Virus record (IMG/VR): IMGVR_UViG_2636415959_000005
From: a virus
Lineage: Duplodnaviria > Heunggongvirae > Uroviricota > Caudoviricetes
Direction: 5' to 3' (one strand)
Length of the DNA stretch: 40,716 nucleotides
Shown in pieces: positions 1,023 through 37,079 of the stretch. The notes below the pieces were generated by a model. The model did not search any database. It was not told the origin of the DNA and saw only the letters and a list, made by a program, of their open reading frames with translations. Numbering within the stretch: position 1 is the first letter of the stretch; each line of letters begins with the position of its first letter. A program made the translations under genes and the position numbers.

Positions 1023-2195
1023 ATGCATATGATTGAAATTAACAGTTTATTATTAATAACATCCGTGATATTGATGTCGTTATTAGCTGTGGGGTTATTT
1101 GATAAAATTTCCCCAATAAATCTTGTTGAGCACGGCAGGAATAATCAAATAGATGGAATGCGGGGGTTCTTAGCAATTTTCGTGCTTATTCATCACGCAG
1201 CAATTTGGAATGGATACTTGTCATCTGGAGTATGGGAAGCACCTTCATCAAATCTGTTAGCAAATTTAGGCCAAGTTGGTGTGTCATTCTTTTTTATGAT
1301 TACTGGTTATCTGTTCTTTTCAAAGATTATCTCTGGAGATCAGGACTGGACAAGGCTTTATGTATCAAGATTACTACGATTAACCCCAATGTTCATAGTT
1401 AGCCTATGTCTCATTTTTATCATTGTAGGTTTTAAGTCTGGATGGAGAATGCAGGTATCCACAGAAGAGCTTTTTGTGTCAATAATGAAGTGGTTGCCAT
1501 TCACTGCGCTAGGTATGCCGAACATTAATGACGTAAAAGATTCATTTACTATCAATGCCGCTGTAACATGGACACTTGTATATGAATGGTTCTTTTATTT
1601 TTCTCTTCCGGTAATTTCCGCGCTCATAAAAAGAAAAGTCAGTATTTACATGGTTATGATTAGCGCAATATCGCTATTTGTTTTCATTTTATTTTTCAGT
1701 AAAATACACATAGTATCATTTCTTTTTGGGCTCCTGGCATTTTTGCTAAATAAATCAAAGATAGTCAATGGAATTGCCAAAGCAAAAGTAACACCAATCA
1801 TAATAACTGCGATAATGATTTTTGAAATGACGTATTTCAAAACAACTTACGCACCGCTACCACTGATTCTTTGTGGAATAACATTTATCATTATCGCATC
1901 AGGTTGTGATTTGTATGGAATATTAAGATTAAATATAACCAGAAAGCTAGGAGAAACTACCTACAGCGTTTACCTTCTGCATGGGATATTCCTTTATTGC
2001 CTAATGACGTGGATTATTCCTAATAATTACACTGAAAATACATTTATCATACTGGTAAGCACAACTGCATTTCTTATTACGTTCACATCATGCCTAACTT
2101 TTAAATTAATAGAGACGCCATTCATCAAATTAACAAAACAAACCACAACTTTAGTAAAAGAATTAATACCCACATTAACAAACAACAATCAATAA
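1023..2195 (+). CDS. oac: O-antigen acetyltransferase, acyltransferase-3 family integral membrane protein (serotype-conversion moron)
   Basis: 390-aa polytopic hydrophobic ORF with the N-terminal motif (…NQIDGMRGFLAIFVLIHH…) typical of this family; visibly AT-rich. Exact start (1023 or 1029) uncertain. Confidence 0.75.
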   Translation: MHMIEINSLLLITSVILMSLLAVGLFDKISPINLVEHGRNNQIDGMRGFLAIFVLIHHAAIWNGYLSSGVWEAPSSNLLANLGQVGVSFFFMITGYLFFSKIISGDQDWTRLYVSRLLRLTPMFIVSLCLIFIIVGFKSGWRMQVSTEELFVSIMKWLPFTALGMPNINDVKDSFTINAAVTWTLVYEWFFYFSLPVISALIKRKVSIYMVMISAISLFVFILFFSKIHIVSFLFGLLAFLLNKSKIVNGIAKAKVTPIIITAIMIFEMTYFKTTYAPLPLILCGITFIIIASGCDLYGILRLNITRKLGETTYSVYLLHGIFLYCLMTWIIPNNYTENTFIILVSTTAFLITFTSCLTFKLIETPFIKLTKQTTTLVKELIPTLTNNNQ

Positions 2196-21221: not shown

Positions 21222-21413
21222 AAAAAATCCCGAAACCGTTATGCAGGCTCTAACTATTACCTGCGAACTGTTTCGGGATTGCATTTTGCAGACCTCTCAG
21301 CCTGCGATGGTTGGAGTTCCAGACGATACGTCGAAGTGACCAACTAGGCGGAATCGGTAGTAAGCGCCGCCTCTTTTCATCTCACTACCACAACGAGCGA
21401 ATTAACCCATCGT
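21222..21413 (-). ncRNA. Lambda-type 6S RNA (short pR' transcript ending at tR')
   Basis: Region between Q and S matches lambda pR'–tR' sequence from memory; tR' hairpin cccgaaac…gtttcggg followed by attttttat at about 21222..21277. Confidence 0.7.
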
Positions 21414-21420
21414 TGGGTCA

Positions 21421-21449
21421 AATTTACCCAATTTTATTCAATAAGTCAA
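21421..21449 (-). promoter_or_regulatory. Late promoter pR' (-35 TTGACT, -10 TAAATT) with overlapping qut site
   Basis: Minus-strand sequence TTGACTTATTGAATAAAATTGGGTAAATT as in lambda pR', immediately downstream of Q. Confidence 0.8.
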
Positions 21450-21491: not shown

Positions 21492-22115
21492 CTAACGTGT
21501 GACCGCATTCAAAATGTTGTCTGCGATTGACTCTTCCTTGTGGCATTGCACCACCAGAGCGTCATACAGCGGCTTAACAGTGCGTGACCAGGTGGGTTGA
21601 GTAAGGTTTGGGATTAGCATCGTTACAGCGCGATATGCGGCGCTTGCTGGCATTCTTGAATAGCCGACACCTTTGCATCTTCCGCACTCTTTCTCAACAA
21701 CTCTCCCCCACAGCTCTGTTTTTGATATATCAACCGCACGGCCTGTACCGTGACAATCTCTGCATCTTGCGCCCGGCGTCGCGGCACTACGGCAATAATC
21801 CGCATAAGCGAATGTTGCGAGCACTTGCAGTACCTTTGCCTTAGTATTTCCTTCGAGCTTTGCCACACCACGGTATTTCCCCGATACCTTGTGTGCAAAT
21901 TGCATCAGATAGTTGATAGCCTTTTGTTTGTCGTTCTGGCTGAGTTCATGCTTACCGCAGAATGCAGCCATTCCGAATCCGGCTTGTGATTGCGCCATCC
22001 CCATAGCAGCCATCACATCAGTACCGGAAAGAGAGTCAGACGCCGTGGCCCGTGGTGAGTCACTCATCATCGGGCTTTTTGGCGAATGAAATTTAGCTAC
22101 ACTTTCGAGTCTCAT
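21492..22115 (-). CDS. Q: Late-gene antiterminator Q (lambda-type)
   Basis: 207 aa; translation matches lambda Q as I recall it (MRLESVAKFHSPKSPMMSDSPRATASDSLSG…). Confidence 0.95.
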   Translation of the reverse strand: MRLESVAKFHSPKSPMMSDSPRATASDSLSGTDVMAAMGMAQSQAGFGMAAFCGKHELSQNDKQKAINYLMQFAHKVSGKYRGVAKLEGNTKAKVLQVLATFAYADYCRSAATPGARCRDCHGTGRAVDISKTELWGRVVEKECGRCKGVGYSRMPASAAYRAVTMLIPNLTQPTWSRTVKPLYDALVVQCHKEESIADNILNAVTR

Positions 22116-26717: not shown

Positions 26718-26794
26718 GTGGATTGATCCAGTAATTCCCTCAGAATTGCATATCAATTTGCTTAAAATCCTCGGTGGCGGCCGGGGATTTTTTC
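26718..26794 (+). ncRNA. oop-like antisense RNA overlapping the 3' end of cII
   Basis: Plus-strand sequence resembles lambda oop; terminator stem tcctcgg…ccgggga plus tttttt at 26768..26794. Confidence 0.5.
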
Positions 26795-27036
26795 TTTGTG
26801 ATTTCATCAAGCGCATACTTAAAAGCCCTGCTAATCGGACTGATGTCTGATGCCATTCCGAAAGCACACAAGACCGAAGCAATAAACCGCCAGTCCGTTC
26901 TGCTTATCTTCGATTCATGACAGCCAATCATCTTTGCCAGACCGCGCTGGGTAAGCGTTGACAGGTTGATGAGTAAATCAGTTTCAGCGCGATCAATTTC
27001 TCGCTGTGTTGGCTTGCTGTAGCTTGCTTGTGCCAT
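26740..27036 (-). CDS. cII: Transcriptional activator CII
   Basis: 98 aa; C-terminus (…KKKSPAATEDFKQIDMQF) resembles lambda CII (…KKRPAATERSEQIQMEF); sits between cro and O. Confidence 0.75.
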   Translation of the reverse strand: MAQASYSKPTQREIDRAETDLLINLSTLTQRGLAKMIGCHESKISRTDWRFIASVLCAFGMASDISPISRAFKYALDEITKKKSPAATEDFKQIDMQF

Positions 27037-27104: not shown

Positions 27105-27145
27105 TCACCCGGTTAGAGGTGAAAGGCCATGACTGTTAAAGAGCG
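27105..27145 (-). promoter_or_regulatory. nutR (boxA cgctctttaac plus boxB hairpin with CUAACC loop)
   Basis: Minus strand: boxA at 27145..27133, boxB tcacct-ctaacc-gggtga at 27122..27105, immediately downstream of cro. Confidence 0.6.
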
Positions 27146-27153
27146 GGTACTGC

Positions 27154-27372
27154 TTAGGCGGCTTTGTTACTGGATGGAGGGAAAACATCATCCAAAGAAC
27201 ATTGGCACCCTAACTTCCTGAGGCCTTCTACGATCATTCGGCAATCGTTAAGGCCAGGAGTACGGATATTCAGCTCATAGTTGGCGATGCGGGATTGCCC
27301 CCAACCAATTGCTGAAGCTAGTACAGCTTGCGAAACTCCGATTTTTTTTCGCTGCTGGGCAATTTTGTTCAT
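27154..27372 (-). CDS. cro: Cro-like repressor (XRE-family helix-turn-helix)
   Basis: 72 aa from MNKIAQQRKKIGVSQAVLASAIGWGQSRIANYE…; gggag RBS; divergent from cI; unlike lambda Cro. Confidence 0.8.
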   Translation of the reverse strand: MNKIAQQRKKIGVSQAVLASAIGWGQSRIANYELNIRTPGLNDCRMIVEGLRKLGCQCSLDDVFPPSSNKAA

Positions 27373-27374
27373 TG

Positions 27375-27470
27375 CGGTCTCCCTAGCATTAATCACACAC
27401 CCATTACACACAATTTGTGATTAACAGTCAACCTCAATTCGTGTACAGAGTTCAATCACGTTGCGTGTTA
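27375..27470. promoter_or_regulatory. Right operator/promoter region (OR sites, pR and pRM) between cro and cI
   Basis: Repeated half-sites ttaatcaca / tgtgattaa and caatcacg…cgtgtta in the 108-bp divergent intergenic region. Confidence 0.6.
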
Positions 27471-27480
27471 CATTTAAGGG

Positions 27481-28128
27481 ATGAAAACGATGCATGAAAT
27501 TATCGGGGAAAGGATCAAGTCCCTTAGAGAAGCTAAAGGACTTAGCCAGGCTCAATTGGCCAAGCTTTGCGGCTGGGCTGCGCCTTCACGCCTGGGGAAC
27601 TACGAGTTAGGAACAAGAAAGGTTAGCGCGGATGACGCGCTGGTTCTTGGGGCGGCACTCGGCGTATCTCCGGCAAAAATAATGTTTGGCGAGGATTCAG
27701 ACGCCGTATTTCGCCAATATGAATACCCGTTATTTTCTTCAGTGCAGGCCGGGCCATTTTCGGAGGTGGGAAGCTACACAGCCAGCGATGCAAAGGCATG
27801 GGTCCCAACGACCACAAAAGCCAGCGAAAAAGCTTTCTGGCTTGAGGTGAAGGGGCATTCAATGACGGCGCCTCAGGGGGTTCGTCCAAGTTTTCCGGAA
27901 GGCATGCTGATACTCGTTGATCCGGCTGAGCCGGTAGAGTCTGGGGATTTCTGCGTGGCTTCTGCAAATGGTGATTCAGAGGCAACGTTCAAGAAGTATG
28001 AGAAGGATGCAGGGGTTAGTTACCTGGTACCTTTAAACCCGGCATATAGAACCCTGGATTGCGACCATAGCTGCCGCATCATAGGCAAGGTAGTTAAGGC
28101 GCAGTGGCCTGAAGAGACGTTTGGCTGA
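27481..28128 (+). CDS. cI: CI repressor (novel N-terminal HTH domain, lambda-like S24 C-terminal domain)
   Basis: 215 aa; C-terminal part (…[15 protein letters not shown]…[14 protein letters not shown]…QWPEETFG) resembles lambda CI; N-terminal part does not. Alternative start at 27490. Confidence 0.9.
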
Positions 28129-28240
28129 TCGGCAAGGTGTTCTGGTCGGCGCATAGCTGATAACAATTGAGCAAGAATCTTCATCGAATTAGGGGAATTT
28201 TCACTCCCCTCAGAACATAACATAGTAAATGGATTGAATT

Positions 28241-29080
28241 ATGAAGAATGGTTTTTATGCGACTTACCGCAGCAAAAATAAAGGGAAAGATAAGTGCTCA
28301 ATAAACCTGTCTGTTTTCCTTAATTCTCTGCTGGCTGATAATCATCACCTGCAGGTTGGCTCCAATTATTTGTATATTCATAAAATCGATGGAAAAACTT
28401 TTCTCTTTACCAAAACAAATGACAAGAGTCTGGTTCAGAAGATAAATCGCTCTAAAGCTTCAGTTGAAGATATTAAGAACAGCCTCGCAGATGACGAATC
28501 ATTGGGATTCCCATCTTTTTTGTTTGTTGAAGGCGACACCATTGGTTTTGCCAGAACTGTTTTCGGGCCGACCACATCCGATCTGACAGATTTTTTAATC
28601 GGGAAAGGAATGTCATTAAGCAGTGGAGAGCGCGTTCAGATAGAGCCACTGATGAGGGGAACCACCAAAGACGATGTTATGCATATGCATTTCATCGGCC
28701 GAACAACGGTGAAGGTAGAAGCCAAGCTACCTGTATTTGGCGATATATTAAAGGTCTTAGGGGCAACAGATATTGAAGGGGAGCTTTTTGACTCATTGGA
28801 TATAGTCATTAAGCCAAAATTTAAAAGGGATATAAAAAAGGTTGCCAAGGATATTATTTCTAACCCGTCACCTCAATTTTCAGACATTAGCCTGCGGGCA
28901 AAAGATGAGGCCGGAGATATTTTAACAGAACATTATCTATCAGAAAAAGGCCATCTCTCAGCGCCTCTGAACAAGGTCACCAATGCTGAGATAGCTGAAG
29001 AGATGGCATATTGCTACGCAAGAATGAAAAGTGATATACTGGAATGTTTTAAAAGGCAGGTGGGCAAAGTTAAGGATTAA
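28241..29080 (+). CDS. rexA: RexA (Rex abortive-infection/exclusion system sensor)
   Basis: 279 aa; translation matches lambda RexA as I recall it (MKNGFYATYRSKNKGKDK…QVGKVKD). Confidence 0.9.
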   Translation: MKNGFYATYRSKNKGKDKCSINLSVFLNSLLADNHHLQVGSNYLYIHKIDGKTFLFTKTNDKSLVQKINRSKASVEDIKNSLADDESLGFPSFLFVEGDTIGFARTVFGPTTSDLTDFLIGKGMSLSSGERVQIEPLMRGTTKDDVMHMHFIGRTTVKVEAKLPVFGDILKVLGATDIEGELFDSLDIVIKPKFKRDIKKVAKDIISNPSPQFSDISLRAKDEAGDILTEHYLSEKGHLSAPLNKVTNAEIAEEMAYCYARMKSDILECFKRQVGKVKD

Positions 29081-29095
29081 TTATCAGGAGTAATT

Positions 29096-29530
29096 ATGCG
29101 GAACAGAATCATGCCTGGTGTTTACATAGTAATAATTCCTTACGTTATCGTAAGCATTTGCTATCTCCTTTTCCGCCACTACATTCCTGGTGTTTCTTTT
29201 TCAGCTCATAGAGATGGCCTTGGGGCGACATTGTCATCATATGCAGGAACCATGATTGCAATCCTGATTGCTGCCTTGACGTTTCTAATCGGAAGCAGAA
29301 CGCGCCGACTGGCCAAGATTAGAGAGTATGGGTATATGACATCGGTAGTTATTGTCTATGCCCTTAGTTTTGTTGAGCTTGGAGCTTTGTTTTTCTGCGG
29401 GTTATTGCTTCTTTCCAGCATAAGCGGCTACATGATACCCACTATCGCCATCGGCATTGCCTCTGCATCGTTCATTCATATATGCATCCTTGTTTTCCAA
29501 CTATATAATTTGACCAGAGAACAAGAATAA
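29096..29530 (+). CDS. rexB: RexB (Rex system membrane protein)
   Basis: 144 aa polytopic membrane protein; matches lambda RexB as I recall it. Confidence 0.9.
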   Translation: MRNRIMPGVYIVIIPYVIVSICYLLFRHYIPGVSFSAHRDGLGATLSSYAGTMIAILIAALTFLIGSRTRRLAKIREYGYMTSVVIVYALSFVELGALFFCGLLLLSSISGYMIPTIAIGIASASFIHICILVFQLYNLTREQE

Positions 29531-29557
29531 CCCGGCCACCGAGCCGGGTTTTTTATT
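29531..29557 (+). terminator. Rho-independent terminator after rexB
   Basis: cccggc-caccga-gccggg followed by ttttttatt directly after the rexB stop. Confidence 0.8.
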
Positions 29558-29739
29558 GCCCGCCGATCACTATCAGGACAGCACCTGCCCGCCGGTCCAA
29601 ACTATTGATTAAATTACTATAATTCTTAATACAACTCCCATATCCCGCCATCTCGCCACCACCCCCTTCGCTCGTTTTTCGAACTTTTCAGCACCCATCC
29701 TGCTGTTGCCACCGACTTAAGTAAGCAAAACCATCGCGG

Positions 29740-29830
29740 GTAAAACTATTTACACAAAAAAATCATACACATAACGTGTCACACCTTTATTTTACACATT
29801 TTGTGATTGACCATTAAATCACAATATGTG
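29740..29830 (+). promoter_or_regulatory. Left operator/promoter region (OL sites, pL)
   Basis: Repeats of operator-like half-sites (ttacacattttgtgatt, aaatcacaatatgtgact) upstream of N, resembling those in the cro–cI region. Confidence 0.5.
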
Positions 29831-29883
29831 ACTATCATTTCCATCAGCAGGACGCTGAGACGCCACAAGGAACAGATTGGCAG

Positions 29884-29923
29884 GCTCTTTAACATCGACG
29901 AACTCTCAACCTAACCGTTGAGA
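29884..29923 (+). promoter_or_regulatory. nutL (boxA gctctttaaca plus phage-21-type boxB tctcaac-CUAACC-gttgaga)
   Basis: 7-bp stem with hexaloop CUAACC at 29904..29923, preceded by boxA; matches my recollection of phage 21 boxB. Confidence 0.65.
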
Positions 29924-30033
29924 CCAGAACTTGAGTGGTTTTGGGGATGGCGCGAATTGCAGCTGCAAGACAGCGATCGAGAAGATAAGCACCTCGACGC
30001 GTCATGCGCCAAAGCCGCTTAAAGGAGACCATC

Positions 30034-30339
30034 ATGGTAACCATTGTCTGGAAAGAATCCAAAGGTACGGCAAAAAGCCGCTACAAAGCTCGCAGAGCAG
30101 AACTTATTGCCGAGCGACGCAGTAATGAAGCACTGGCGCGAAAAATTGCGCTAAAGCTCTCTGGTTGCGTCAGAGCAGATAAAGCAGCATCACTCGGAAG
30201 CCTTCGCTGCAAGAAGGCAGAAGAAGTCGAGCGTAAACAGAACCGTATTTACTACCGCAAGCCACGCAGTGAAATGGGTGTGACTTGTGTTGGTCGCCAG
30301 AAAATGAAATTAGGCAGTAAGCTACTGTATGAGGGGTGA
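30034..30339 (+). CDS. N: Antiterminator N (phage-21-type arginine-rich motif)
   Basis: 101 aa from MVTIVWKESKGTAKSRYKARRAELIAERR…; aaaggag RBS; C-terminus (…YYRKPRSEMGVTCVGRQKMKLGSK…) resembles lambda N. Confidence 0.85.
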   Translation: MVTIVWKESKGTAKSRYKARRAELIAERRSNEALARKIALKLSGCVRADKAASLGSLRCKKAEEVERKQNRIYYRKPRSEMGVTCVGRQKMKLGSKLLYEG

Positions 30340-30342
30340 GAT

Positions 30343-30531
30343 ATGCATAAATGTCAGTTCTGTGGATACATGTTTGAATCAAATGAAATGCAACGTATTT
30401 CGTTAAACCTTATCGGTAGGCCATACAACATTTGCCTAGGATGTAGCGAGAAATACAAAAACAAAGACATGTGGGACGACAATAAAAACGATATCGACTG
30501 GAAATCACTTCCATGCGTCGATGAGACATAA
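30343..30531 (+). CDS. Hypothetical Cys-rich (CxxC…CxxC) small protein
   Basis: 62 aa; CQFCGYMF…CLGCSEKY suggests a zinc ribbon; first gene after N. Confidence 0.5.
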   Translation: MHKCQFCGYMFESNEMQRISLNLIGRPYNICLGCSEKYKNKDMWDDNKNDIDWKSLPCVDET

Positions 30532-30564: not shown

Positions 30565-30861
30565 ATGATCGACGACATCAAGCGCATCGACTCAATGATA
30601 AATGCGCTTCGCAATATGAAACAGGACATCAAGCGTCAGCAGAAACTAAGTGAAATAAACAGTTTAGACCTGTCGCCGAAGCAAGCTCAAAAGCGCAATG
30701 CCGATGCTGACTGGATTGCGATGGAACAGATTAAGCGTCGGCATGAGCTGCACGCTCTGTCTGTTGAGCTTGGGTTCGCTGAGCGCCGGGAAAGTTATGC
30801 TCCATTTGAATTAACTGACGGGTGGCACCGATTCGACCACAAGCCGCGCGAACCTCAATAG
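30565..30861 (+). CDS. Hypothetical protein (98 aa)
   Basis: ORF in the pL operon, followed directly by a terminator. Confidence 0.5.
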   Translation: MIDDIKRIDSMINALRNMKQDIKRQQKLSEINSLDLSPKQAQKRNADADWIAMEQIKRRHELHALSVELGFAERRESYAPFELTDGWHRFDHKPREPQ

Positions 30862-30882
30862 CCGCCTAACCAGCGGCTTTTT
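30861..30882 (+). terminator. tL1-like rho-independent terminator
   Basis: gccgc-ctaacca-gcggc followed by tttttcat. Confidence 0.7.
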
Positions 30883-35298: not shown

Positions 35299-35945
35299 AA
35301 CAAATGACACTAATTGAGATGGATGGATTTCTGAAAGGTAAATGCATCCCACGAGATTTAAAGGTTAACGAAACAAACGCTGAATATCTGGTGCGTAAAT
35401 TTGCTGAGATTGAATCAAAACTGGAAACGGCGTTGCGGGAGTGTCGTTCTGCTGGAATAACGATTGATAACCTTGAGGCCAAGTGCGCAGCGCTGGCTGC
35501 TGATAACAAGAAAGCAATGGAGGCAATGAGGCAGGCAGATGCAGCTGTTAAGTTGGCACACGAGAAGTTTTCGGCGCTGGCGGCGGAGAATGCGATGTTG
35601 AAGCAACGGACACAGCAACTTATCGACATCATTAGTAATACTGACAATGACTACTGCATGTGTGGTTCTGCTATGAAAGACCACGTGCACAGCGGATGTG
35701 GTTATCCTACTGGCATGTTCGATTATTACTACAACCAGTGGCTGGAGTCAGATAACAAAACCCCAGCCACCGACGATTTCCTGGCTGAAGTGCGGGCTAA
35801 GGCGTTTAATGACCTTTGCGCGGTGTTCGTTAAGGACGCGACGGTTATCGGGCTGGACGATGGCGACATCGTTACGGTGAAAGAAGCGACGGACGCCCTG
35901 TTGCATTGTGCGGAACAGCTTCGCAAAGGAGGTGAGCAAAAATGA
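35295..35945 (+). CDS. Ea22-like protein
   Basis: 216 aa with central coiled coil and Cys/His-rich C-terminal part; position between the recombination genes and xis as for lambda ea22. Confidence 0.5.
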
Positions 35946-36259
35946 CAATCACAAAACAACGTGTAGAAGAAATCATATCCCGTATTGAAATGTATGGGCA
36001 TGGTGCTGGGTATACAGCCGAAGAGGTTTATGACCTTGCTGTGCTGGCGCTGAATTTATCAAATATCGCAAACCTGAAGCGATACGAGCTTGATATGGGT
36101 GGTTGTGACTCGTTCGGTCAGGATTGTGGTGCTGACATGAGTGAAGATTCTGATGGCGATTATGTCCTGTTTGATGACGTGGTTAAGTTGTTTGAGTTTG
36201 ATACAACCACTCAGAAGTTAGAAGGCCCAGCAAAGGAGACAACCAGTGAGCGAAATTGA
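35942..36259 (+). CDS. Hypothetical acidic protein (105 aa)
   Basis: ATGA-coupled ORF; acidic C-terminal region. Confidence 0.45.
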   Translation: MTITKQRVEEIISRIEMYGHGAGYTAEEVYDLAVLALNLSNIANLKRYELDMGGCDSFGQDCGADMSEDSDGDYVLFDDVVKLFEFDTTTQKLEGPAKETTSERN

Positions 36260-36884
36260 CTATCAGGCACTGCGTGAGGCGGCAGAGAAAGCAACGTGGG
36301 GAGACTGGGACTCATATAAACCACACCGTGGCGCACGTGGTTATGAGGTCCGACTAAGTAGTCAGGCCATTGCGCAACACGTTCTGAAAAACAACGCTGA
36401 ATTTATTGCTGCCTTTAATCCAAAGGTTGCTTTGGCACTACTGGATGAACGGGAAAGGAACCAGCAATACATCAAATCCCGCGACCAGGAGAACGAGGAA
36501 ATTGCGCTAACGGTAGGGAAGCTGAGAGTTGAGCGTGAGAAAGCAAAATCAAAACTCAACGAGCAGCGTGAGTATTACGAAGGTGTTATCTCGGATGGAA
36601 GTAAGCGCATAGCAGAACTGGAAGCGCGGGAAATAAAACCAGCCAAAGGTGAAGTTCTGGTCGTTGTATCTGGTTTTACTGGTTGCGGAAAAAGCGCCAT
36701 TGCCGGGGAAATAGAAATCGCGATGAAGGCTATTGGTGTACCGGTTAAGTGGACTAATGGCGATGCAGAAAAGCGCATGACTGGCGCTGACTGGCTGACA
36801 GCAATTGAGATGTACAAACCAACTGTGCGCATCGTGGAAGTTAATGTGCCACGTGCCGCAGGCATTCGCATCAAAGGAGAGTGA
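36246..36884 (+). CDS. Ead/Ea22-like protein
   Basis: 212 aa; N-terminus MSEIDYQALREAAEKATWGDW… is the kind of conserved N-terminal module I associate with Ead/Ea22-like proteins. Confidence 0.55.
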   Translation: MSEIDYQALREAAEKATWGDWDSYKPHRGARGYEVRLSSQAIAQHVLKNNAEFIAAFNPKVALALLDERERNQQYIKSRDQENEEIALTVGKLRVEREKAKSKLNEQREYYEGVISDGSKRIAELEAREIKPAKGEVLVVVSGFTGCGKSAIAGEIEIAMKAIGVPVKWTNGDAEKRMTGADWLTAIEMYKPTVRIVEVNVPRAAGIRIKGE

Positions 36885-36886
36885 TA

Positions 36887-37077
36887 TGGACGGACAAATA
36901 TCAATCGTTCGACCAGGCTCATGTGACGATCGCGAAATACGAGTAATTATTCGTCTGGCAATGGGGAAAACAATAACTGCTCTCATTACCCCAGAAAATC
37001 TCGCATTAGCATTAACAGGAAAGTCAGACCTGCCAGTAGAGCTAAAGCTGCGAAATGTTGAGATTAAGGTGAAATAG
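36887..37077 (+). CDS. Hypothetical small protein (63 aa)
   Basis: Start at MDGQISIVRPG… 2 nt after the upstream stop; the track ORF from 36805 overlaps the previous gene. Confidence 0.4.
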
Positions 37078-37079
37078 CT

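What the first reader, a model, noticed from the sequence alone, without database searches (positions are those of the whole stretch)
29884..30339. Phage-21-type N/nut system combined with lambda-type Q, qut and 6S RNA
N carries the arginine-rich motif I recall for phage 21 N (GTAKSRYKARRAELIAERR). Both nutL and nutR have boxB hairpins with a CUAACC hexaloop rather than lambda's GAAAA-type pentaloop, while the late antitermination module is lambda's. N and its nut sites appear to have moved together as a unit.
Basis: partly seen in the sequence, partly recalled or inferred. Interest (0 to 1): 0.4.

Follow-up and report, generated by a model that had tools for sequence, protein, structure and literature searches.

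The report
Phage-21-type N/nut with lambda Q
This prophage carries the early antiterminator N and both RNA target sites of coliphage 21 together with the late antiterminator Q, its promoter site and 6S RNA of phage lambda, which is a real but ordinary and already well-known mosaic among lambda-like phages.

Summary
N (30034-30339, +) matches phage 21 N at 94 of 97 aligned residues. Its residues 8-29 are identical to the N peptide in the solved phage 21 N-boxB complex (PDB 1NYB). nutL (boxA 29884-29894, boxB 29904-29923) and nutR (minus strand, boxA 27144-27134, boxB 27123-27104) are the phage 21 sites, with 7-bp stems and a CUAACC loop. Q (21492-22115, -) matches lambda Q at 206 of 207 residues. 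pR'/qut, the pause element, the 193-nt 6S RNA and tR' differ from lambda at two bases. Phage 21's own Q is unrelated.

The combination is not new. Lambda imm21, DE3 and the natural phages Kapi1 and phiv205-1 all have it. The nutL-N segment occurs in 1532 of 5426 complete E. coli genomes.

One qualification applies to "moved as a unit". The 2.7 kb between the nut sites (cI, cro, operators) is not phage 21. It is the mEpX1/VT1-Sakai immunity type with lambda rexAB inserted. Similarity to phage 21 starts at the pL transcription start and at boxA-R. In 45 viral contigs, N and both nut sites keep the same specificity type across at least nine immunity spacings. So N and nut behave as a fixed frame around an exchangeable immunity cassette.

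Low interest; already known.

The parts
29807..29835 (+). pL promoter (-35 TTGACC, 17-nt spacer, -10 GACTAT) within operators of the mEpX1/VT1-Sakai immunity type. The transcription start is at about 29843.
   Evidence: The start was placed by alignment to the annotated pL start of phage 21. Upstream of about 29841 the sequence matches mEpX1/VT1-Sakai, not phage 21.
29884..29894 (+). nutL boxA, GCTCTTTAACA (the rrn-consensus type, as in phage 21)
   Evidence: Identical to the annotated boxA-L of phage 21. The boxA of lambda imm21 is identical to E. coli boxA (PMC3177189).
29904..29923 (+). nutL boxB hairpin, UCUCAAC-CUAACC-GUUGAGA
   Evidence: Folds as a 7-bp stem with a hexaloop, z = -5.35. 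Identical to the phage 21 nutL stem-loop.
30034..30339 (+). N antiterminator gene, 101 aa, with the phage 21 arginine-rich motif at residues 11-29
   Evidence: 94 of 97 aligned residues identical to phage 21 N. Residues 8-29 equal PDB 1NYB chain A, and residues 62-93 resemble lambda N 74-104 of 6GOV. PHROG 271 'anti-termination protein N-like' at E = 8e-37. Pfam N_peptide scores 24.1 bits, below its 27.9 cut-off.
27134..27144 (-). nutR boxA, GCTCTTTAACA, beginning 10 nt after the cro stop codon
27104..27123 (-). nutR boxB hairpin, UUCACCU-CUAACC-GGGUGAG
   Evidence: Folds with a 6-nt loop. Identical to the annotated phage 21 nutR.
27157..28128 (.). Immunity core between the nut sites: cro (27157-27372, -), the oR/pR/pRM region, and cI (27481-28128, +). 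It is not of the phage 21 type.
   Evidence: 99.5% identical to mEpX1 and about 99% to VT1-Sakai. cI is 40% identical to the imm21 repressor as read from Kapi1, and cro shows no similarity to phage 21 cro. Pfam finds HTH plus Peptidase_S24.
28102..29560 (+). rexA (28241-29080) and rexB (29096-29530) cassette with its terminator, lambda/434 type
   Evidence: 99.5% identical to lambda 35796-37253. Terminator-like hairpin at 29529-29550.
26740..27036 (-). cII, downstream of nutR
   Evidence: Pfam Phage_CII at E = 3e-33. 89% identical to phage 21 CII.
21492..22115 (-). Q late antiterminator, lambda type
   Evidence: 206 of 207 residues identical to lambda Q. Pfam Antiterm PF03589 at E = 1e-57. No similarity to phage 21 Q.
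21409..21449 (-). pR' late promoter with qut: -35 TTGACT through -10 TAAATT (21449-21421, which includes the Q-binding element), and the AACGAT pause element at +1 to +6 (21414-21409)
   Evidence: Exact 29-nt match to lambda, with one T-to-C change at -2. The element names come from established knowledge of lambda pR'.
21222..21414 (-). 6S RNA region (193 nt), ending in the tR' hairpin (21279-21227) and a U run
   Evidence: One substitution relative to lambda. Coordinates. The tR' fold is -28.1 kcal/mol, z = -5.83.

Best explanation
The window holds a complete-looking, P22-like (Lederbergvirus-type) lambdoid prophage at the lambda attachment site. Its gene expression runs on two standard antitermination switches of different ancestry.

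Early switch (inferred by homology). Transcripts from pL and pR carry nutL and nutR. The arginine-rich N-terminus of N binds the CUAACC boxB hairpin. NusB and NusE bind the consensus boxA. With NusA and NusG, the complex makes RNA polymerase resistant to the terminators downstream, as in phage 21.

Late switch (inferred by homology). Lambda-type Q binds the qut site in pR', engages the polymerase paused at +16/+17, and carries it through tR'. The 193-nt 6S transcript is then extended into the lysis and virion genes.

The two switches do not interact, so any N type can coexist with any Q type. N specificity must match both nut sites, and the three elements are kept together for that reason. The nut sequences also flank the immunity cassette, which can be swapped. 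What is shown here is sequence identity, the folds, the mosaic junctions and the co-segregation. The activities are inferred.
For: - N is 94 of 97 identical to phage 21 N, and residues 8-29 are identical to the peptide in the solved phage 21 N-boxB complex.
- The CUAACC hexaloop is the loop of that complex (PMC12550061).
- Both hairpins fold as described and are identical to the sites annotated in the phage 21 genome.
- The boxA of lambda imm21 equals E. coli boxA (PMC3177189).
- Q is 206 of 207 identical to lambda Q. pR', qut, 6S and tR' differ from lambda at 2 bases. Phage 21 Q is unrelated.
- Similarity to phage 21 starts about 3 nt before the pL start and at boxA-R. The intervening region is mEpX1/VT1-Sakai type plus lambda rexAB.
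- Co-segregation holds in 7 annotated phages and in 45 IMG/VR loci with 9 nutL-nutR spacings.
- The same N-plus-Q pairing occurs in lambda imm21, DE3, Kapi1 and phiv205-1.
Against: - No functional data exist for this prophage.
- The Pfam N_peptide hit is below the curated cut-off (24.1 against 27.9 bits).
- N differs from phage 21 N at three internal residues and at its last five residues (LLYEG against PLI). The effect of these changes is unknown.
- One of 36 informative IMG/VR loci lacked a recognisable nutR.
- That survey was selected on nutL, so it cannot reveal phage 21-type N genes paired with other nut types.
- No Rfam family covers these elements, so no curated RNA model was available as an independent check.
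Confidence: 0.93

Rival explanations
1. The segment is the laboratory hybrid lambda imm21, or a derivative such as DE3. On this view the N21 plus Q-lambda pairing is a man-made construct and not a natural mosaic.
For: Lambda imm21, lambda h434 imm21 and DE3 match both the N region (96.6%) and the Q region (96.1-96.2%).
Against: - cI and cro are not the imm21 type (cI 40% identical, cro no similarity).
- The replication genes are a P22-like initiator plus a DnaB-type helicase, not lambda O and P.
- The virion genes are P22-like: Sf101, Kapi1 and CUS-3 at 93-96%.
- Identity to lambda imm21 in the N and Q regions is only about 96%.
Confidence: 0.01
2. N and the nut sites are relics in a defective prophage. 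They are present but no longer used, so the pairing has no functional meaning.
For: Many E. coli prophages are cryptic, and activity was not tested. NCBI's pipeline labels the same gene 'hypothetical protein' in other genomes.
Against: - The N ORF is intact with a good ribosome-binding site.
- Both nut sites are identical to the functional phage 21 sites.
- pL, pR', Q, tR', int, xis, the lysis genes and a full set of virion genes are all present as intact ORFs.
- No frameshifts or insertion sequences were seen in the regulatory region.
Confidence: 0.05
3. nutL-N and nutR arrived independently from different donors and match only because this nut type is common, not because they are kept together.
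For: - The closest relatives differ along the region. nutR, cro and cI are closest to mEpX1 at 99.5%.
- The 3' third of N is closest to phiv205-1 and phage 21 and unlike mEpX1.
- The nut type is very common, present in 1532 of 5426 genomes.
Against: - mEpX1 and VT1-Sakai already carry the same cII, nutR, cro, cI, oL, nutL and 5' N arrangement at 98.5-99.5%. Only the rex cassette and the 3' end of N need separate exchanges.
- Across 45 loci no mismatched pair was seen.
Confidence: 0.1

Closest known systems
Phage 21 N/nut antitermination system (genome record OL657228; N peptide-boxB complex PDB 1NYB)
   Same: - N is 94 of 97 identical, and the arginine-rich peptide is 22 of 22 identical.
- nutL and nutR boxA and boxB are identical, including the CUAACC loop.
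- The N leader is at least 98% identical.
- cII is 89% identical.
   Different: - The operators, cI and cro between the nut sites are of another immunity type, and lambda rexAB is present.
- The last five residues of N differ.
- Phage 21 has its own unrelated Q, a different late promoter region and lambda-like replication genes.
Lambda Q/qut/6S late antitermination module
   Same: - Q is 206 of 207 identical.
- The pR' -35 to -10 stretch and the pause element are exact.
- The 6S region has one substitution, and tR' is identical.
- S and R follow as in lambda.
   Different: - There is a T-to-C change at -2 of pR'.
- A patch of about 35 bp between tR' and S is divergent.
- The early antiterminator is not lambda N.
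Lambda imm21 and DE3 (laboratory hybrids); Kapi1 and phiv205-1 (natural P22-like coliphages)
   Same: They pair phage 21-type N/nut with lambda-type Q/qut/6S in the same way. Kapi1 and phiv205-1 also share the P22-like virion genes.
   Different: All four carry imm21 cI and cro with 1.09 kb between the nut sites. The window carries mEpX1-type immunity plus rexAB, with 2.74 kb between them.
mEpX1 and VT1-Sakai early regions
   Same: cII, nutR, cro, cI, oL/pL, nutL and the first two-thirds of N are 98.5-99.5% identical.
   Different: Other accessory genes sit in place of rexAB, the C-terminal third of N is different, and the virion and late modules differ.

Membership tests
N/nut processive antitermination, phage 21 specificity class | N protein with the phage 21 arginine-rich RNA-binding motif at its N-terminus | tested here: met
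   Residues 8-29 are identical to PDB 1NYB chain A. 94 of 97 aligned residues match phage 21 N.
N/nut processive antitermination, phage 21 specificity class | boxB hairpins with a CUAACC hexaloop in both the pL and the pR transcripts, each preceded by boxA | tested here: met
   Folds. Identity to the annotated phage 21 sites. Loop identity to the solved complex in PMC12550061.
N/nut processive antitermination, phage 21 specificity class | nut sites placed between the early promoters and the first terminators of each operon | tested here: met
   nutL lies 41-81 nt after the inferred pL start and before N. nutR lies just after cro and before cII. The terminators themselves were only inferred from the phage 21 annotation.
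N/nut processive antitermination, phage 21 specificity class | Match to a curated N family model | tested here: inconclusive
   Pfam N_peptide PF25694 scores 24.1 bits against a cut-off of 27.9. PHROG 271 'anti-termination protein N-like' scores E = 8e-37.
N/nut processive antitermination, phage 21 specificity class | N- and Nus-dependent terminator readthrough | not testable with these tools
   Needs reporter or transcript assays.
Lambda-type Q/qut late antitermination | Q protein of the lambda family | tested here: met
   206 of 207 identical to lambda Q. Pfam Antiterm at E = 1e-57, above its cut-off. No similarity to Q of phage 21.
Lambda-type Q/qut late antitermination | pR' with the Q-binding element between -35 and -10, and a -10-like pause element at +1 to +6 | tested here: met
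   Exact 29-nt match to lambda and an exact AACGAT element. The identity of these elements rests on established lambda literature.
Lambda-type Q/qut late antitermination | Short terminated 6S transcript ending at tR' upstream of the lysis genes | tested here: met
   193 nt from +1 to the U run, with one substitution relative to lambda. The tR' hairpin folds at -28.1 kcal/mol, z = -5.83. S and R follow.
Lambda imm21 hybrid / DE3 | imm21 repressor, cro and operators | tested here: not met
   cI is 40% identical to the imm21 repressor (read from Kapi1), cro has no similarity to phage 21 cro, and the operators are unrelated.
Lambda imm21 hybrid / DE3 | Lambda replication and virion genes | tested here: not met
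   DnaB-type helicase and P22-like virion genes.

The most novel reading that the evidence does not exclude
The conserved nutL and nutR sequences may act as the fixed homologous frame at which immunity cassettes are exchanged. The supporting observations are these:
- nutL and nutR are near-identical across at least nine nutL-nutR spacings.
- The homology breakpoints lie exactly at the pL start and at boxA-R.

On this reading the immunity region moved into an N/nut frame, and the N/nut system did not move as a unit. This particular mosaic (P22-like virion, lambda int/att, mEpX1-type immunity, lambda rexAB, phage 21 N, lambda Q) would then be a combination not yet present in the phage records or complete E. 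coli genomes searched. That is still an instance of the classical modular theory of lambdoid phage evolution.
Probability: 0.5. Interest if true: 0.15.

Novelty: already known. Interest (0 to 1): 0.08.

Why it matters
It matters little beyond correct annotation. The gene at 30034-30339 should be named N (NCBI's pipeline calls its relatives 'hypothetical protein'), and the two nut sites, pR'/qut and the 6S RNA can be annotated with confidence. The locus is a clean textbook example of two points. Antiterminator specificity (N with both nut sites) is kept matched while the immunity cassette between the sites and the late Q module are exchanged freely. The mosaic junctions also fall at functional boundaries: the transcription start of pL and the boxA of nutR.

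Tried and rejected
- **Rfam scan.** A scan of the whole window at gathering thresholds found nothing. boxB, nut and lambda 6S are not covered by any family that scored, so no curated RNA model could be used.
- **Phage 21 N-boxB paper.** Cilley and Williamson 2003 (PMC1370434) is not held. The loop identity is cited through PMC12550061 instead.
- **First motif script.** The regular expression was too strict and found only lambda nutL. It was corrected.
- **IMG/VR pattern.** The pattern allowed a gap of 8-16, so it caught nutL (gap 16) but not nutR (gap 17). It also returned 35 unrelated boxA-like matches without a hairpin, which were set aside. nutR was then searched inside the loci.
- **Laboratory lambda imm21 or DE3 prophage.** Considered and rejected on the immunity, replication and virion modules.
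- **Hairpin at 30860-30878.** Considered as a third N site because of its CUAACCA loop. CTAACC occurs 21 times in the window against about 20 expected, and the hairpin is absent from all 130 fetched loci. It is treated as a chance resemblance in a terminator.
- **Identical mosaic in complete E. coli genomes.** None of 5426 genomes covers at least 80% of the 10.6-kb Q-to-N stretch.

Full report
**Context**

The window is a lambdoid prophage flanked by host genes.
- A PBP-family gene lies at 1-477 (YbhB-like, named from my own knowledge). An ORF that I recognise from memory as ybhC starts at 39433. Lambda-like int (38228-39298) and xis (38032-38250) are named by position and size; no search was run on ybhC, int or xis.
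- The virion genes (about 2.2-18.2 kb) are P22-like. Sf101, Kapi1, phiv205-1 and CUS-3 match at 93-96%.
- Replication uses a P22-type initiator and a DnaB-type helicase.
- Early leftward transcription runs on the + strand: cI, rexA, rexB, then pL, nutL and N, on towards int. The pR operon runs on the - strand: cro, nutR, cII, replication genes, nin genes and Q.

**Check of the observation**

N:
- N starts at the ATG at 30034, with AGGAG seven bases upstream, and ends at 30339.
- It contains GTAKSRYKARRAELIAERR and matches phage 21 N (OL657228) at 94 of 97 aligned residues.
- Residues 8-29 are identical to all 22 residues of chain A of PDB 1NYB, the phage 21 N peptide bound to boxB RNA.
- PMC12550061 describes that RNA as having a CUAACC hexaloop that adopts a GNRA-like (UMAC) fold closed by a C-C pair.
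- Against lambda N only a 30-residue C-terminal stretch aligns, at 16 of 30. The same stretch matches residues 74-104 of lambda N in the antitermination complex 6GOV.

nut sites:
- nutL consists of boxA GCTCTTTAACA (29884-29894) and boxB UCUCAAC-CUAACC-GUUGAGA (29904-29923).
- nutR on the minus strand consists of the same boxA (27144-27134) and boxB UUCACCU-CUAACC-GGGUGAG (27123-27104).
- Both fold as 7-bp stems with a 6-nt loop. nutL gives -8.0 kcal/mol, z = -5.35, 0 of 200 shuffles as good. nutR gives -8.2 kcal/mol, z = -1.96.
- They are identical to the nutL and nutR stem-loops annotated in the phage 21 genome.
- Lambda's sites have 5-bp stems with GAAGA and GAAAA loops.
- The boxA is the form that PMC3177189 says makes lambda imm21 BoxA identical to E. 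coli BoxA.

Late module:
- Q (21492-22115, minus strand, 207 aa) matches lambda Q at 206 of 207 residues. It scores E = 1e-57 on Pfam Antiterm.
- It has no detectable similarity to the 162-aa Q of phage 21.
- From the Q stop to the end of tR', the DNA differs from lambda at two bases.
- The 29-bp -35 TTGACT to -10 TAAATT stretch (21449-21421), which in lambda holds the Q-binding element, is exact. So is the AACGAT element at +1 to +6 (21414-21409).
- One change is T to C at -2. The other lies inside the 193-nt 6S region (21414-21222).
- tR' (21279-21227) folds at -28.1 kcal/mol with z = -5.83 and is followed by a U run.
- S and R follow as in lambda.

**What lies between the nut sites**

- Similarity to phage 21 begins about three bases before the annotated pL start (window about 29841). 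On the other side it begins at boxA-R, immediately after the cro stop codon.
- Between those points the sequence is not phage 21. cI is 40% identical to the imm21 repressor (read from Kapi1), cro shows no similarity to phage 21 cro, and the operators do not align.
- That core is 99.5% identical to mEpX1 and about 99% to VT1-Sakai. Both also carry the same nutR, nutL and the first two-thirds of N.
- Inserted after cI is a block 99.5% identical to lambda rexA-rexB and its terminator (28102-29560). Its left junction lies inside the last codons of cI.
- An E. coli chromosome (isolate WI2) has the same cI, cro and rexAB arrangement with a different Q.
- N is itself mosaic. Its first 65 or so codons are shared by all relatives. 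Two unrelated C-terminal thirds circulate, and the window has the phage 21/phiv205-1 version with a variant tail.

**Do N and its nut sites travel together?**

- Seven annotated phages cover three immunity types: imm21 in phage 21, Kapi1, mEp235 and phiv205-1; the mEpX1 type in the window and mEpX1; and a 933W-like type in PA28. In all of them the GTAKSRYKARR motif sits with CUAACC at nutL and CUAAC(C/A) at nutR.
- A pattern scan of IMG/VR for boxA followed by CTAACC gave 80 readable loci, of which 45 had the true nutL hairpin.
- All 45 encode an N with that motif within 900 bp downstream.
- Of the 36 loci that either showed a nutR or had at least 3.2 kb of upstream sequence, 35 have a cognate nutR on the opposite strand. 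The distances fall into nine classes from 1.09 to 2.82 kb, which means different immunity cassettes.
- The survey was selected on nutL, so it shows that nutL21 implies N21 and nutR21. It does not show the converse.
- N and its sites are thus kept matched, as their mechanism requires. The evidence fits them best as a conserved frame around an exchangeable immunity cassette, not as a block that hopped from phage 21.

**Mechanism (inferred by homology)**

- N binds boxB through its arginine-rich helix.
- NusB and NusE bind boxA. With NusA and NusG the complex renders RNA polymerase termination-resistant through the early operons. That allows expression of the replication, recombination and nin genes and of Q.
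- Q then binds qut at pR', captures the sigma-paused polymerase, and reads through tR' into lysis and morphogenesis.
- The two switches share no specific contacts, so mixing types is functionally neutral.

**Novelty**

- The N21 plus Q-lambda pairing is exactly that of the classical hybrid lambda imm21 and of DE3. It also occurs in the natural phages Kapi1 and phiv205-1, which share the P22-like virion genes.
- The nutL-N segment matches in 1532 of 5426 complete E. coli genomes, 300 of them at 80% coverage or more.
- No complete E. coli genome covers 80% or more of the 10.6-kb Q-to-N stretch, and no phage record covers 80% of any of the shorter pieces searched apart from the Q region. The exact mosaic is therefore a new combination of known modules and nothing more.
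- Verdict: real, correctly described, already known, low interest.

Noticed in passing
window 28102-29560: A lambda/434-type rexA-rexB cassette (99.5% identical to lambda) sits inside a non-lambda immunity region of the mEpX1/VT1-Sakai type. Its left junction falls within the last nine or so codons of cI, and its right end lies just past the rexB terminator. mEpX1 has two unrelated genes at the same place, so the slot after cI behaves as an exchangeable accessory-gene site.
   Followed up: partly
window 30229-30339: N is itself mosaic. Two unrelated C-terminal thirds circulate among phages that share an identical N-terminal two-thirds: a lambda/phage 21-like RNAP-binding type, and a 'YYKDSNPLGNKIHAVQKIKLYSK' type in Kapi1, mEpX1, mEp235 and PA28. 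The window has the phage 21-like type but a variant tail, LLYEG.
   Followed up: partly
window 29932-30025 (+): The N leader between nutL and the N ribosome-binding site folds into a long imperfect hairpin. The whole 202-nt leader gives -67.4 kcal/mol, z = -3.68. The stretch is nearly identical in phage 21. From memory of the lambda literature, which was not checked here, its position recalls the RNase III-processed N-leader structure of lambda.
   Followed up: no
window 30860-30878 (+): A terminator-like hairpin AGCCGC-CUAACCA-GCGGCU followed by a U run lies right after the 98-aa ORF 30565-30861. It is a candidate first terminator of the pL operon. Its loop contains the boxB loop sequence CUAACC. 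CTAACC is no more frequent in the window than chance predicts (21 sites against about 20), and the hairpin is absent from 130 fetched loci, so this is probably coincidence.
   Followed up: partly
window 1023-2195 (+): A 390-aa Acyl_transf_3 family membrane acyltransferase (Pfam E = 2.5e-32) lies next to the tailspike at the prophage end. It is probably an O-antigen-modifying (serotype-converting) gene, as I recall such genes from P22-like phages; this was not checked here.
   Followed up: no
window 30343-30531 (+): A 62-aa protein with two CxxC pairs lies directly downstream of N, where phage 21 has ral. It has no Pfam hit and matches only a PHROG of unknown function (phrog_19863, E = 3e-46).
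   Followed up: no
IMG/VR loci L013, L027, L034, L036, L050, L060, L069, L076 and others: A third arginine-rich-motif variant, GTAKSRYKARRAAK(I/Q)EQ(A/V)QQ, occurs with the same nutL boxB. Its nutR stem ends GGGUAA instead of GGGUGA. The second half of the motif therefore diverges while the loop stays CUAACC.
   Followed up: no
L075 (IMGVR_UViG_2778261276_000001): This is the only locus with nutL21 and N21 but no recognisable nutR within 7 kb upstream. It may be a rearranged or defective element.
   Followed up: no
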